NCBI GenBank assembly: GCA_043818055.1
Contig: JBDRGF010000003.1
Span: forward strand, 1-56,564
Origin: Pseudomonadota bacterium
GTDB taxonomy: Bacteria > UBA10199 > 2-02-FULL-44-16 > JBDRGF01
DNA: 56,564 nucleotides
Direction: 5' to 3'
Shown here: in pieces, positions 1-6,000 of the stretch
Numbering within the stretch: the first letter of the stretch is position 1
Layout: the number at the start of each line of letters is the position of its first letter
Made by a program: the position numbers

Positions 1-3000
1 TAGACTCACAGTCTAACTTTTTAGACACTCCCGGTCCGTGCAAACTCTAGATGGCAGAATGATCTTAACGGTATCGAGTTCAAACCCACTTTGAAAATCC
101 ATTCATATTACCTGCTAAATAGTTCAATTCGGTCATAAACAACAAATTAGTTATAACTCCCTTTTCTTCATCGGATCGGATATGTTCAATCAGATTCAAC
201 ATTTCATTACATCTTGGATGCACAGCAAAGAAGCTTCCGGTTTTGGCATAGGTGTATGCCCGACACCCTCCCCTACAAATATGAAAATTTTCACAAGTAT
301 CACATTTGGTACTATTATTTAAATAACACGACATTTTATTTTCATGCTGAGTTAATATATATTCAATTGAATCGTTCAACAGATTTCCTAACAATAGTTT
401 ATCTGGAATATTCTCACACATATAGACATTACCAAATGGGTCAATCTGAATTAAATTCCCACAAAGGGCATTGCAATAGTATTTACGTTTTATATCTCGC
501 AATCCAAGATAACCAACCAGAATATCATTTACAAAATCGATATTCACATGAGGGGAATACTTTTTCTGATATTTATACAAAAGTTCATATAGATCACATA
601 AAGGATGCAATTCCAGATCTGAATAATTGTCCTTTGCCTTCCCAACTCCCTTAACCTCGGAGACATGAACTGTATCAATTTCATTATCCGCACAAAACTT
701 CAAAGTTTTATCAAGAGTTTTTATTGTATAGCTGTTTATTGTTATTGCTACTGTAAAATCAAGATCAGCTTCTTTACATTTATCAATCGTTTTAAGAACT
801 CTGGACAAACCATCCACACCCCGTGACATGATGTAAGTATCTTTATCAACACTATCCAATGTAAATTGAACAGAACTTCCAGTCTCTTTTAATACATCAA
901 TAAAATTGTCGATAGTGACAAGGCCGTTGGACGCGAATATTATTTTTACGTCAAGTTTATGAAGCCACTTTAAATATTCGACAAGATGAGGATACAAGAA
1001 AGGTTCTCCGCCAGAGAGTGAAAAGAGCCTGAAGTTTTTATCAATCAACTTTCTTGAGATTTTTTTTAATTCATTCAAGTTCCAACTCTTCTCAAGACCT
1101 TTTCGATTATAGCAATATGGACAATGAGCATTACACAAATTTGTTAATTCCAACATAACCCCTTTAACTGGCATATTCCACATACCTCCGTTTTAATCTT
1201 ACAAGAATAAAACACGACACCATGATGACAAGGCCAGCAAAGAAAAAACCAGTATTTATGCCACATTTGTGGGCCAGGGCTCCTAGTATAAAACCTGATG
1301 ATATTTCACCGCCTGCCCCAACTAATTCGTATGAAGATAAAGCGGTTGCGCGAATCGAAGAAGGAATACGTTGATTTAAATAATTTTGAACAGATGGTCT
1401 CAACACATAATTTAAACCAAAAAAGATAATAATTAGATAGTAGGAAACAGTCATAGAATAGACTGATATTGTTAGAACAATAAAAAATATTATCCCCTGA
1501 GACAAGATCAATACTGTAAGATCATTATACTTCAGTATACGGCTCGAAACTTTGTCTAAAAAAAGCATTATGATTCCCATTATTGAACTAATGGTATACA
1601 GGTAAGCTATCTGAATAGATGAAAACCCTATATTTTGCAGAAATGGCTGATAATAGCGTTCTATGCCATCTATACCAAAAGCCAAAGCTGCACCTGCAAA
1701 GAAAAATAAGCTTAAATTCTTATTACTTTTGATAAGATGATACGACTCTTTGATACTTTCAATGAAATGCATTCTGAAATTTAGTTTCTTTCTCTTTTCA
1801 TCCAGTGCCAGCACCTCAGGCATAAAAATACATGATAATAATGCAATTAAATTAGCTGTTATAGATATATATAAAATTGAATACCGACTAATTTTATAAA
1901 CATGTCCGGCAAATATTGAGGAGATAATGCAAAATAAGTAAAACAGGATATAAGCATTTGTAATATTAGCTTTAAATTTGCCCTCTTGACCTCGGCCTTT
2001 TAGATAGTCCATCAGCCAGGCCTCATATGCACCTGAACGAAATGAATCCCCCAATCCAAAGATAAAAGCAGCCAAATAAGCGTGCCAGGGCACATTCGCA
2101 ACAGTGAAGATTGCCAATGAGAGAGTATATATCAAAGCAGCACCAACTAATGATATTTTTCTACCATACTTGTCGGCAAAACTACCTGTCGGAATTTCAA
2201 AGATCATCCTTGAGATCTCAAGAATAGCACCAATTAGCCCTATATGAAATAAATTAAGCCCTACATCCTTAAAGAAAATAATCCATAACGAAAAAAAGAT
2301 GCCATTTGATATGCCTCGCATCGAAATATAAGAGTAAAAACCTAACATCTTAAATTCTCCTTGGGAAACAATCCCTTTTCGTAAAAAGACTGACAAATCG
2401 GGTCTGGTGCAGTAAATCTTCTGTAGCGATTATAAGCTTCAACTCTACAACCACCCTGACAATCAGGGAGAAACTTACATATTTTACATACACCTTCAAA
2501 TTCAGTTTCACCAATATTTTTTAATTTAATGTAAGAAGGATGATTTACAATTTTTTTAAGAGAATCGATTCTGATATTACCTAAAATAAATTCCGAATTA
2601 TCTAATAACCCATCGCAAGGAGCTACATTTCCATTCGAATCAATACCCAGCATATGAGGAAAGGAACAAAGATATCCCCCACCATGTCGCGTATTTTGAA
2701 AACGCTGTGGAATAAGACCTTTTGGTATTATCAGACTTAAATCAAAATTATTTTGATACTTCATTAACCATTCATCAATTAGGTGATCAAATATTTCTTT
2801 CTTTAATTCAACCGAGATATCATCATCTTTAGTCGCTTTTCCTGATGGCATTATGGGAATTACACAAAAAGTTGAAGGTTTTAATTTAGAACAGAGCTCA
2901 AACATTCCAAAGATTTTTTTATAATTATGCTTCATCAATGTAGTCGCAATAACAAGGTTTTTTGAATTACAATTATTTTTTGCAAATTCAAAGAAATCCA

Positions 3001-6000
3001 ATGCTTTGTTAAAAGAGCCGGAACGTCCTCTAATTTCATCGTGACTTTCATCCGGGGCATCAATACTTACCTGCAATAAATGAAATTGGATCTCTTTCAG
3101 TCTATTTAAATCTTTTTTTCCAAATACATATCCATTAGTACTCATTGAAATTAGATAACCGGATCTATTAATAAGTTTTAAGAGTTCAAATATATCATTA
3201 TTCAATAGAGGCTCTCCTCCATTTACAAAAAGTTGACAACAACCCAATTCTTTCAATTCACCTACAATTCGCTTGATTTCGGCACTGGTCAACTCGTTAA
3301 GATATCTTTTTTTGTAATCAGTGTTAACATAGCAGTGCTTACATTTCAAATTACAATGTCTTGTAACTTTAATAGAAGCTGAATAAATCAGAGGAGAACC
3401 AAAAAACTCATTAAACTGGCTTAAAGTCGAGATCTTTTCCATTTTTTAAACACTCCTTTGGAAACAATCCATCATCATACATTTTCTGACAAGTTGGAAA
3501 TGGCCCATATATATCATTGTAATAAGCAATCGAAGAAGCTCTACAATTTCCAGCACACTCAGTAAGAAAAACACACTGAGAGCATACACCCTTAATTTTC
3601 AATATATCCTGTTGTAAAATTGAATCCGATTCATAAATTCTTTTCCAACTCTCAGCCATGCCCATTTTTTTGTAATTCCCCGCAACAAACTTTTTATTAC
3701 CTAAAAATCCATCACACGGAGCTATATCTCCATCAACCCCAATTCCCATAATATGTGGATAAGAACAGCATTCAATAAACTTGAGATGCAATCCTTTATC
3801 ACGTAAATCCTTAGGAATAAATACAGGTGGAATAACACTGTTTTCAGCAAATTTCACTTTGAAGTCAGATTTTCGATATTCTTCAAACATGCTATTTAGA
3901 TTCTCAACCAGTTCTTTTGGCGTCACATCCATTTCTTTAGTTGCCCTTCCCAACGTTAGCAACAGCATCAATGCAATGCTGTCCACTTTTAAATCTATGG
4001 CTACACGCATAATCTCATCAAGATAATTAATATTTGACTTAGTAATGCACACGCCGAGAGTAATATTCTTTATTTTGTTCATTTGAGCGCATTTAATAAA
4101 ATCATTCGCTTTTTTATAGAAATTGGTACCGCGATTTTCATCATGGATACGTTCTGGCCCATCTATACTAATCTGAAATTGAAAAAAAGGAATATGAGAT
4201 ATAGCTTTTAGCTTTGATTCGTCTAAATATGTTCCATTCGTGCTGATCAATATATCAAAACTTTTTTCATGGGCATACTCTAGAATTTCTACAATATCTT
4301 TTCTCAGAAATGGTTCACCACCTGTAAAAAAAATCTTATAAGCACCTAATTTAGTAAGTTCATCCAGAATATTCTTAACCTCCTGAGTAGTATGCTCACC
4401 TAAAGTTTTCTTACCCGCATTAGTATAGCAATGTTTGCAATGAGCATTACAAGCCATCGTTAAACGCATCGAGGCTGCTTGTAACGGATAATCTCCAAAA
4501 AAATCAGATACATTTTTGTTGTTTGATATAATTTTACAACTCATCGGCTTCCTCCAATTCAATTAATTCACCATTTTTCAAATTTTCAATACATTCATAT
4601 GTATCGGATAATATCTCTTTTTTTTGTTCTTCAGTTTCAGGATGATATTTCTCACACATTTTTAAAAATATTTTCTGAACGTCATTATTCCCATCACATA
4701 ATGAATAGATCTCAAATGCTGTCGTGTTAATTCCAATGCTATTCGAAAATAGATAAGCTTTCTTTAGTTTTTTATATTCATTGTTCTTCTTAATTGGTAT
4801 CAATTTAATATTCATTTTCTTCTCCTTTAATCACTTCAGGAGGAGGCAAGATATCACCTCCCCCATGAAGTTTTTTAATCCTATTACACCTTATGACCAC
4901 CTTCAATATTCCGACATCTCGCAATTTTTACCACAACTGGTTTTACATATGCTGTCATTGGATTTCACCTCCTTTCAGTCTTCTTATACTATTAACGTTT
5001 AGTCCTTTATTAGATTTACCAATCACACCTAATTCAATCTATCACTTCTTTTCAGAGCTTTTACCTTCTTTCTTCGATTGAACTTCTTCAACTATATCTT
5101 TCCCACTGACAGCTTTTAAGCCGGTCATAATTGTTGGGGAATATTTTTTCTTTGTTGTGAACAATATCGAGTCGCTCTTTTCGTTTTCTGTCTGATATAT
5201 CACTCCGAAGTTGTCGCGTTTTTTCTTGCTGAATAGCATAAAGAGAAAGAGTGGATTGACAAACGCCAGACCAACGCTCTCTCCTACACGGCGTCTTGCG
5301 TATTCTCCCTTGGATATTTCTGATATTTTCGTTCCGTCAATTTTGCGATCCAGATGTTTGTACTTCGAAGAAGAATAATCTACGTGGAGATAGCCATCTT
5401 TTGTATAAACCATGCACTTACTAAATTTACCCTCCCCGTTTAGACATTCTGCATTAGCAGCAAACGCAGCCGGAGACATCACCATCGATAAAATACAAAC
5501 CATTAAAATTGCACGCTTCATTGTTTTTTTCTTTTTCATCCCTTCCTCCTTTGTTTTAGGTATCCATGAAACATACAAATCAATTCAATGAGGCCTCTCT
5601 ATGCATTTACCGTGCCAAAAATTATAGAATGGATAACAGCTTGATATATATGGATATATTGGTCTGGGATGTTTTTGATATGATCGAAAGTGTCTGGAAT
5701 GTTGGACTTAATAGTCTAGGAAATTGGACGGTAAATAAGAAAAAAGCGCATGTAGCATGTGGCATGTAGTATGTAGTGAAAAGCTAAAAACCTTCTCCCC
5801 CATCCGCCCTGCGGGCACCTTCCCCCGTCGAGGGGGAAGGGCATAGAGGAAAATGTCATTGGGGGCACCTTTCCCCGTCTCAGCCAGAAGCTGATCTGCC
5901 TTTGGCGGAAAGGTGGAAGGGCAAGAAGTAAAATGTCATTGGGGGCACCTTCCCCGATCGAGGTGGAAGTAAATAAGGGAGTGAATTGGTAGGATTAAAA

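What a model noticed while it worked through the whole genome (the two positions that open the first line are those of the whole stretch)
80..4958. Uncalled 24-aa GGHK-tailed precursor with PqqD and three radical SAM/SPASM enzymes: a new RiPP family
An uncalled 24-aa ORF (C3:4884-4958, minus strand, strong RBS) with a YxKP leader and a G-G-H-K-V tail precedes pqqD, three SPASM radical SAM genes and an MFS exporter. Peptides with the same leader and GGHK[VIA] end precede the same cluster in five other metagenomes, defining a new radical-SAM RiPP family.
Evidence so far: ORF and RBS read from the DNA. 94 homologues of the first maturase; in 44 loci read, PqqD precedes 2-4 SPASM genes in 31; 5 loci carry a GGHK-ending peptide of 24-41 aa, four with a visible RBS directly upstream of pqqD. 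Not found in 92 other phylum genomes; cluster GC 0.33 against 0.43.
(Added by a program. Inside this text positions count along the whole contig: contig position 1 is position 1 of the stretch shown here. "Call 12" and the like, gene names such as g00115 and contig names such as C1 are that model's own, and its searches are not shown. The text may have been shortened before it was handed on; [...] marks where a part breaks off. The agent that wrote the report below was given it as the finding of a first reader that could run no searches.)

Follow-up and report, generated by a model that had tools for sequence, protein, structure and literature searches.

The report
Gly-His-Lys-tailed radical-SAM peptide family
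A tiny overlooked gene here encodes the substrate of an apparently undescribed pathway in which a pair of related radical-SAM enzymes most likely cross-links a short Gly-His-Lys tail into a small natural product; the pathway is scattered across bacteria and archaea, and a minimal version in a cultured heat-loving bacterium makes it directly testable.

Summary
Confirmed, and wider than reported. The 24-codon ORF (4958-4884) has a strong RBS and a downstream hairpin, and precedes pqqD, SPASM enzymes A and B, an MFS exporter and SPASM enzyme C. A precursor profile hits 35 of 54 family loci (window included, many redundant) and 0 of 116 loci of distant radical SAM genes; 17 of the 19 misses are cut or fragmentary contigs. 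The '403-aa gene' subgroup does carry the peptide (AAGHKV); that gene is a CE4 amidohydrolase. The family motif is [YF]xxP...R...G-H-[K/T]-x-stop, not GGHK. The constant core is precursor + PqqD + paralogues A and B. A minimal version (plus MFS) sits in four genomes whose enzyme A matches Caldicellulosiruptor proteins; named carriers also include Patescibacteria and archaeal MAGs. No enzyme or precursor reaches an NCBIfam cut-off. My paper searches found no description; subscription journals were not covered. This scan had not found it on other DNA. Best guess: leader-guided radical cross-linking around the invariant His, then trimming and export, tryglysin-like in logic. Chemistry and product are inferred, not shown.

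The parts
4884..4958 (-). Precursor peptide, 24 aa: YxxP-type leader and C-terminal G-H-K-V core
   Evidence: family alignments; profile hits; codon pattern
4967..4973 (-). Shine-Dalgarno AGGAGGT, 8 nt before the precursor ATG
4833..4871 (-). Stem-loop between precursor and pqqD; probably stabilises the precursor message or attenuates read-through (inferred)
   Evidence: -24.8 kcal/mol, z -3.87, 0 of 200 shuffles; strong hairpins at the same place in L081, L082, L175-L177, weak in the CE4 subgroup
4534..4815 (-). Stand-alone PqqD-type RiPP recognition element, 93 aa
   Evidence: PF05402 above cut-off; family alignment; family profile's best PDB hit is lasso leader-binding protein TbiB1, E 2.6e-7
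3411..4544 (-). Radical SAM/SPASM enzyme A, 377 aa, core maturase; CxxxCxxC, seven SPASM Cys and invariant Asp in PCDG
   Evidence: AlphaFold model pLDDT 91 with SPASM-maturase fold
2342..3442 (-). Radical SAM/SPASM enzyme B, 366 aa, paralogue of A (34% identical), core maturase
1164..2348 (-). MFS transporter, 394 aa, probable exporter or immunity protein (inferred)
   Evidence: PF07690; 37-38% identical orthologue inside the clusters of L175-L177
80..1174 (-). Radical SAM/SPASM enzyme C, 364 aa, accessory maturase of a separate clade
   Evidence: start chosen by RBS spacing
5601..5617 (-). Sigma-54-type promoter site in front of the upstream 165-aa gene; may or may not read into the cluster (context, not shown to be part)
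   Evidence: 44 such sites in the genome against about 5 expected; no terminator-like site between that gene and the precursor
5042..5539 (-). Upstream 165-aa hypothetical protein; host gene, not part of the conserved cluster
   Evidence: no Pfam/NCBIfam family; no homologue in the other loci; GC3 0.40 against 0.24-0.31 for cluster genes
1..141 (.). Contig end shared with the starts of G000 contigs C35 and C73, so the downstream neighbourhood is unresolved

Best explanation
A radical-SAM RiPP pathway. The short gene is translated (inferred from RBS and codon conservation). The PqqD protein binds its [YF]xxP-x-[VIA] leader and presents the fixed-length basic linker and C-terminal G-H-K-x tail to two paralogous SPASM enzymes, A and B (binding inferred, weakly supported by a model). 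Each enzyme abstracts a hydrogen from an sp3 carbon of the tail and performs an oxidative bond formation; the most likely acceptor is the invariant His imidazole, giving one or two cross-links to Lys, the last residue or the Gly alpha-carbon (inferred by analogy; nothing shown). Optional enzymes (SPASM C here; B12-dependent rSAM and others elsewhere) add further changes. The modified tail is cut free by a host protease here, or by a cluster-encoded CE4 or creatininase-family amidohydrolase elsewhere, and leaves through the MFS as a small cyclic peptide acting against competitors or as a signal (inferred). Odds: real RiPP precursor and cluster about 0.95; His-centred cross-link about 0.55-0.6; exported antagonist or signal about 0.5.
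For: Precursor in 35 of 54 family loci and 0 of 116 control loci. P, R, G and H invariant in 35 of 35 aligned precursors, K in 33 of 35, stop always two residues after the His. A profile built without them found one hit in each of 4 of 13 genomes of the G647 family, beside the cluster genes. In 400 sampled Bacillota genomes the same three carry enzyme A and the precursor. A and B occur together in every locus long enough to show both, except the divergent L122. The four lineages with 24-aa precursors and one extra linker residue (window, L081, L082, L175) group together in both the A (99) and B (98) parts of a quick tree. YxxP is a characterised RRE recognition motif (PMC12710340, passage). 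Modelled PqqD-precursor pair of L085: weak support, score 0.58 against best control 0.02, runs agree in at least 96% of contacts, partner pLDDT at least 59; the mark was reached by 116 of 157 solved complexes and 2 of 215 mismatches, but at 0.60 or under by only 18 of 157 and by both mismatches, and similar RRE-leader complexes are solved. Known SPASM maturases start at sp3 carbons and couple to electron-rich groups (PMC10114670, passage); His C2 cross-links are known for HaaB, YhhB and ScaB (PMC11002830, passages); the wgk operon has the same parts list (PMC8092268, passages).
Against: No chemistry was observed. The best profile scores of A and B go to MftC and the Ahb/NirJ decarboxylases as much as to WgkB, all far under cut-off, so sequence does not pick a reaction. 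Lys is Thr in 2 of 35 precursors and the last residue is Gly in 4 of 35, so neither a His-Lys nor a His-to-last-residue C-beta link fits every member; the loci of the Thr variants were not seen. Precursor and enzyme A distances correlate over 22 loci (rho 0.65, 0 of 5000 permutations) but not over 12 lineage representatives (rho 0.18, 516 of 5000). I saw no exporter in the CE4 subgroup and no protease in the window or in L175-L177. L110, L122 and possibly L111 show no precursor in the DNA held.
Confidence: 0.58

Rival explanations
1. Mycofactocin-like logic: A or B oxidatively decarboxylates the C-terminal residue and closes a small ring, an amidohydrolase releases a two- to four-residue unit, and the product is an intracellular cofactor-like molecule.
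For: Top NCBIfam score for window enzyme A is MftC (132 bits), followed by AhbC, AhbD and NirJ. The core is at the extreme C-terminus in fixed register. A creatininase-family gene, the family of MftE (89 bits, cut-off 172), lies beside the precursor in L100, L120 and L178. MftC chemistry as described in PMC10114670 (passage).
Against: All scores are far below cut-off (MftC 265). The last residue varies (V, I, A, G, L) and is never Tyr. I saw no shared oxidoreductase partner among recurring neighbour families. Several clusters carry exporters: MFS in the window and L175-L177, MATE in L081, ABC-2 in L003.
Confidence: 0.2
2. Radical remodelling of the His ring or backbone rather than simple cross-linking: A and B oxidise the tail to a cyclic amide or N-formyl intermediate that the CE4 or creatininase enzyme opens or deformylates, giving a heterocycle no longer recognisable as a peptide.
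For: The nearest solved folds of the CE4 protein include PuuE allantoinase, HP0310 and ArnD; that these act on cyclic amides or formyl groups, and that creatininase opens a cyclic amide, is recalled. Its Asp-Asp, His-His and His metal-site residues are invariant or nearly so in 14 aligned members. Two unrelated amidohydrolase folds fill the same slot.
Against: The window and L175-L177 have no such hydrolase in the DNA read, so this step cannot be essential; fold similarity at 13-16% identity gives no substrate.
Confidence: 0.1
3. Metal-binding product: cleavage exposes Gly-Gly-His or Ala-Gly-His (an ATCUN-type Cu/Ni site) or Gly-His-Lys, rigidified by the enzymes, for metal uptake or detoxification.
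For: The invariant His sits third in G/A-G-H; ATCUN and GHK copper binding are recalled, not tested.
Against: No metal-uptake receptor or metal regulator was among the recurring neighbour families identified; only part of the neighbours were scanned.
Confidence: 0.08
4. The ORF is a chance or regulatory ORF and the enzymes act on a non-peptide substrate, as AhbC/AhbD/NirJ do on tetrapyrroles.
For: A and B score 122-175 bits on Ahb/NirJ profiles.
Against: Cut-offs are 395-650. A dedicated PqqD family sits in the clusters. The peptide keeps the same tail across bacteria and archaea with synonymous variation and in L114 lies downstream on the opposite strand, which a leader ORF could not.
Confidence: 0.03

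Closest known systems
Tryglysin / wgk system (WgkA, WgkB, WgkC, WgkD) of streptococci
   Same: Short once-unannotated precursor (21 aa), SPASM enzyme without fused RRE, separate RRE, transporter; modification at a C-terminal aromatic/Gly/Lys motif (PMC8092268 and PMC9389541, passages). A and B score 114-152 bits on the WgkB profile.
   Different: No Trp; motif is G-H-K-x instead of W-G-K-H; two paralogous core enzymes instead of one; WgkB cut-off 650 not approached; no SHP/Rgg genes recognised.
Mycofactocin (MftA, MftB, MftC, MftE)
   Same: Separate PqqD-type RRE, SPASM enzyme acting at the C-terminus; creatininase-family gene in three related loci.
   Different: No C-terminal Val-Tyr; MftC profile 105-147 bits against 265; creatininase absent from most loci, replaced by a CE4 enzyme or nothing.
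His-containing triceptides (HaaB, YhhB, ScaB) and dynobactin
   Same: His as aromatic partner; H-K-V fits the i to i+2 spacing (PMC11002830, passages). DynA is the top profile for enzyme C (102 bits).
   Different: Last residue can be Gly, which has no C-beta; anaerobic-sulfatase-maturase profile ranks near the bottom of the top 25 for A and B; DynA cut-off 450 not met; single motif at the very C-terminus.
GeoRSP and SynChlorMet cassettes (bioinformatically defined)
   Same: PqqD plus several SPASM genes plus a short peptide; L003 and L110 also carry HPr-kinase-like, S26-like and nucleotidyltransferase genes.
   Different: None of their NCBIfam profiles is met by the enzymes (78-151 bits against 400) or matched by the precursors.
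Lasso peptide leader/B1 pair
   Same: YxxP leader and TbiB1-like RRE.
   Different: No lasso cyclase or B2 protease recognised among the neighbours scanned; no ring-forming Asp/Glu core.

Membership tests
Radical-SAM RiPPs (broad kind) | Short conserved precursor with leader and core beside an RRE and rSAM/SPASM enzyme | tested here: met
Radical-SAM RiPPs (broad kind) | Enzyme modifies the peptide | not testable with these tools
   needs co-expression and mass spectrometry
Radical-SAM RiPPs (broad kind) | RRE binds the leader | tested here: inconclusive
   weak support only, 0.58 against control 0.02, on the L085 pair; like complexes are solved
Tryglysin (WGK) | [quoted passage not shown] | tested here: not met
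   no Trp in the tail of any of 35 aligned precursors
Tryglysin (WGK) | WgkB equivalent (NF050035, cut-off 650) | tested here: not met
   124, 114 and 63 bits for window A, B, C; 152 and 142 for L175
Mycofactocin | MftA-type C-terminus ending Val-Tyr | tested here: not met
   no NCBIfam match for the window precursor or 19 relatives
Mycofactocin | MftC (TIGR03962, cut-off 265) | tested here: not met
   132 bits at best in the window, 147 in L175
Triceptides | Aromatic-X-X motif with a C-beta at position 3 | tested here: inconclusive
   H-K/T-x in all; position 3 is Gly in 4 of 35
Triceptides | Characterised three-residue cyclophane synthase family | tested here: not met
   no NCBIfam family reached its cut-off among the best 25 shown for A, B or C
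Sacti-/ranthipeptides | Conserved Cys in the core | tested here: not met
   Cys is not conserved; most precursors have none
PQQ | PqqA ExxxY core and PqqE (cut-off 381) | tested here: not met
   72-96 bits; no such core
GeoRSP / SynChlorMet | Family profiles for rSAM, PqqD and peptide | tested here: not met
   PqqD member scores shown are 31-33 bits against 100
Heme/siroheme enzymes AhbC, AhbD, NirJ | Equivalog cut-offs | tested here: not met
   at most 168 bits against 500-650

The most novel reading that the evidence does not exclude
The A/B pair performs histidine chemistry not yet known for radical SAM enzymes (a double His-Lys ring fusion, or oxidation and opening of the imidazole), turning a four- or five-residue tail into a new small-molecule scaffold; and the pathway is active in reduced-genome Patescibacteria and in archaea, where it would be a rare dedicated natural-product pathway, inserted even among ribosomal-protein genes.
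Probability: 0.25. Interest if true: 0.85.

Novelty: new variant of a known kind. Interest (0 to 1): 0.64.

Why it matters
Each new radical-SAM RiPP family has tended to yield a new bond type, and this one has an unusual design: two paralogous SPASM enzymes kept together on a four-residue His-centred tail, with interchangeable tailoring and hydrolase genes. One member enzyme was already listed as RRE-associated in a 2023 compendium without a precursor, so the missing substrate is supplied here. The five-gene version in genomes matching cultured Caldicellulosiruptor species gives thermostable enzymes and a host for finding the product. Its presence in Patescibacteria and archaeal MAGs bears on what secondary metabolism such lineages have.

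Tried and rejected
Single-protein search with the window PqqD found only itself; the family was recovered from loci instead. Viral contigs: 9 distant loci at 22-32% identity, none of the family. Precursor profile: 0 of 401 genomes of the phylum of G044 (Patescibacteria; no positive control in that sample), 1 of 251 in the class of G042 (the known carrier), 3 of 401 in the phylum of G647; two weak hits in relatives were a stretch of a 487-aa ORF and a leader of another peptide family. The family is therefore rare and patchy. Structure searches of enzyme A gave only general SPASM maturases (CteB TM 0.69, 22% identity; SkfB Z 28.7, rmsd 3.2, 290 aligned) and no mechanism. Sigma-70 promoter and terminator scans were at chance level. 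RNA libraries: 20 runs of 5 studies hold part of the G647 locus; in 4 laid runs a contig covers the precursor in 2 and parts of enzyme A in all 4; contigs give no level or strand and no silent stretch was laid, so transcription is not shown. Co-evolution by distance correlation failed on 12 lineage representatives. The tree is the quick method; a labelling fault in my script lost coordinates and may have overwritten rows, so groups were re-derived with profiles. The 'NIE' letters shared with a peptide on contig C75 were checked: those peptides have neither the leader nor the tail. The idea that the Gly-ended precursors need the RRE-fused 449-473-aa enzyme rests on L001 and L002 only; L091 has that gene but is cut before its precursor. 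Papers: no hit for GGHK with radical SAM and precursor peptide, for the deacetylase combination, or relevant to GGHKV/AGHKV/GGHKI/GGHKG (14 unrelated listings); Caldicellulosiruptor RiPP papers name other clusters.
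Full report
Observation. 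On the minus strand the window carries a 24-codon ORF at 4958-4884 (MTAYVKPVVVKIARCRNIEGGHKV) with AGGAGGT 8 nt upstream, then a strong stem-loop at 4871-4833 (z -3.87, 0 of 200 shuffles), then tightly packed genes for a PqqD protein, radical SAM/SPASM enzymes A and B, an MFS transporter and a third enzyme C. The cluster has GC 0.333 against 0.433 for the genome. None of the proteins reaches an NCBIfam cut-off among the families shown, and the peptide matches none. The contig's last 141 bases are also the first 141 bases of contigs C35 and C73, so what follows enzyme C is unresolved.

The family. Enzyme A has 99 relatives at E<=1e-40, 66 of type A and 33 of type B. An alignment of 42 of them fetched 80 genome loci and 77 metagenome loci (both calls kept only the best 80 matches). 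With three further genome regions, nine viral loci and the window, 54 loci hold a family enzyme (profile score 250 or more) and 116 hold only distant radical SAM genes. A precursor profile hits 35 of the 54 and none of the 116 at 12 bits or more. The profile was built partly from these loci and many are near-duplicates, so the 35 is not a count of independent events. Of the 19 misses, 17 are cut or fragmentary contigs (L003's genome has two matches at the ends of other contigs; L120 begins with the last residues of the peptide; L126 is a fragment identical to the window; L111 begins in an upstream gene); L110 has what looks like an insertion element before pqqD and L122 is a divergent member with no PqqD seen. 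The blind test is: a profile without those sequences found exactly one hit in 4 of 13 genomes of the G647 family, each next to cluster genes. A search of 1.84 billion representatives gave 24 proteins of 26-64 aa at E<=0.001, all with the same leader and G-H tail.

The motif. In 35 aligned precursors Pro, Arg, Gly and His are invariant and Lys is in 33; two end GGHTV. The N-terminus is free in length (24-54 aa), while the distance from the Pro to the stop is 17 or 18 residues. All four Gly codons, both His codons and both Lys codons are used, and third positions vary more than twice as much as the first two, as expected of a translated gene under selection.

Core and accessories. A and B are paralogues (34% identical in the window) and occur together wherever the contig is long enough, L122 excepted; C forms a separate clade present in 11 loci. 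All three types keep seven SPASM cysteines; A and B also keep an Asp right after the second (21 of 21 and 21 of 23). From memory, seven cysteines leave one open site on the first auxiliary cluster, and the Asp is where anSME has its catalytic base; neither was tested. Accessories vary: CE4 hydrolase, creatininase (L100, L120, L178), B12-dependent radical SAM with a second PqqD (L003, L100, L108, L110, L120, where the known precursors have Cys two residues before G-H), further SPASM types, kinase-like, S26-like and nucleotidyltransferase genes, MFS, MATE or ABC exporters. The simplest cluster is in G647, G706 and G809: precursor, hairpin, MFS (37-38% identical to the window's), PqqD, A, B. Enzyme A of G647 is 100% identical to P0123, which NCBI and UniRef name as a Caldicellulosiruptor bescii protein; close cluster members are named from three more species of that genus. 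Other named carriers are MAGs: Gottesmanbacteria (identical to enzyme B of L103), Parcubacteria, Theionarchaea, Aenigmarchaeota, Methanosarcina, Atribacteria, Pirellulales, Clostridia; MAG labels can be binning errors and I did not test them. The family is rare: none in 92 other genomes of the window's phylum, 0 of 401, 1 of 251 and 3 of 401 in three other samples. With the low GC this points to horizontal spread (inference). The four lineages with 24-aa, 18-residue-type precursors group together in both the A and B parts of a quick tree, but a distance correlation that is strong over 22 loci is not significant over 12 lineage representatives.

How it most likely works. Shown: the genes, their conservation and linkage. 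Inferred: PqqD binds the YxxP leader, a characterised RRE motif (PMC12710340, passage); the family's RRE profile is closest to lasso B1 proteins in the PDB, and a model of the L085 pair gave weak support only (0.58 against 0.02; 116 of 157 solved and 2 of 215 mismatched pairs pass, but at 0.60 or under only 18 of 157 and both mismatches). SPASM maturases make sp3 radicals and join them to electron-rich groups (PMC10114670, passage). The only such group conserved in this core is the His ring, and His-C2 links are known (PMC11002830, passages). I therefore favour one or two His-centred cross-links, made in sequence by A and B, then trimming and export, with tryglysin as the working model (PMC8092268, PMC9389541, PMC11851443, passages). 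Against it: no single partner residue fits all precursors, sequence profiles lean equally to decarboxylases, and folds give only generic SPASM matches. A mycofactocin-like decarboxylation and release (0.2), ring remodelling with hydrolysis (0.1) and a metal-binding role (0.08) remain open.

Regulation. A sigma-54-type site lies at 5617-5601, one of 44 in the genome against about 5 expected, in front of a 165-aa host gene not found in other loci. The cluster may have landed behind that promoter; this is not shown.

What is known. Eight library searches found no description. The spreadsheet of Precord et al. (PMC10288494; main text searched by terms, spreadsheet searched, PDF supplement not readable) lists the C. 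changbaiensis enzyme A0A3T0D736 as RRE-associated but has no GHKV, GHKI, GHKG or AGHK precursor; its one GGHK hit is an unrelated Cys-rich peptide. Supplements of PMC9062424, PMC12710340 (one small file only) and PMC11851443 gave no hit. Passages of PMC3132745 and PMC4289311 name other Caldicellulosiruptor clusters. Nineteen relatives of the precursor match no NCBIfam family. Most subscription journals, where much of this chemistry is published, were not searchable, and unseen supplements could list the family. Earlier notes of this scan hold no look-alike by sequence and neither tail word.

Verdict. A real, apparently unnamed family of radical-SAM RiPP clusters: a new variant of a known kind, larger and cleaner than first reported, with an unknown product and a simple route to test it. 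Interest 0.64.

Noticed in passing
window 1-141; L158 (G000:C35) and L159 (G000:C73) 1-320: Two contigs start with the same 141 bases as the window's left end and share a 94%-identical ~320-bp stretch with a sigma-54-type site; each continues with a transporter (MATE or MFS), a methyltransferase, a family-5 binding protein and a probable sensor kinase, C35 also with a B12 radical SAM gene. One may extend this cluster.
   Followed up: partly
window 5601-5750 and G000:C73 near 7800-7930: The sigma-54-type site and its upstream region have a near copy on C73.
   Followed up: partly
window 5730-5960: Dispersed intergenic repeat of about 40-140 bp with dozens of copies across the genome.
   Followed up: no
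window 5995-8739 (-): 914-aa membrane histidine kinase with two receiver domains just upstream, low GC like the cluster; a link to it is untested.
   Followed up: partly
window 10706-20095 (-): 3129-aa ORF with an apparent signal peptide and acidic repeats near the C-terminus.
   Followed up: no
L084:3927-13163: The cluster sits between genes that look like rpsL/rpsG (recognised from memory) and EF-G (Pfam), i.e. inside a ribosomal-protein region; an RNHCP-domain gene often lies beside the precursor in this subgroup.
   Followed up: no
L176:7540-9757: Enzyme B of G706 is split by a transposase-like gene, a natural loss-of-function comparison.
   Followed up: partly
L194 (G004:C52): A different PqqD/radical SAM cassette in a same-order genome with a precursor sharing the YxKP leader but with a Cys-containing core ending in Ser, followed by kinase-like and S26-like genes.
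   Followed up: no
L178:3449-3544 and L179:8561-8656: G043 holds two identical precursor matches at contig ends, one behind a creatininase gene; two copies or an assembly overlap.
   Followed up: partly
L082:11327-14603: A cluster followed by branched-polyamine-synthase-like, GNAT, HAD, acyl-carrier and SAM-decarboxylase genes.
   Followed up: no
L004, L006, L127, L129: A separate clade of ~720-aa SPASM proteins with terminal extensions, two of them from archaeal MAGs.
   Followed up: no
L160 (G000:C33:44000-58000): Another cluster in this genome: three radical SAM genes, a B12 radical SAM, a class I tRNA-synthetase-like gene, an ATP-grasp ligase and a creatininase-like gene.
   Followed up: no
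L119: Short contig where a family enzyme appears fused in frame to a MurG-like start (recognised from memory); probably chimeric.
   Followed up: no
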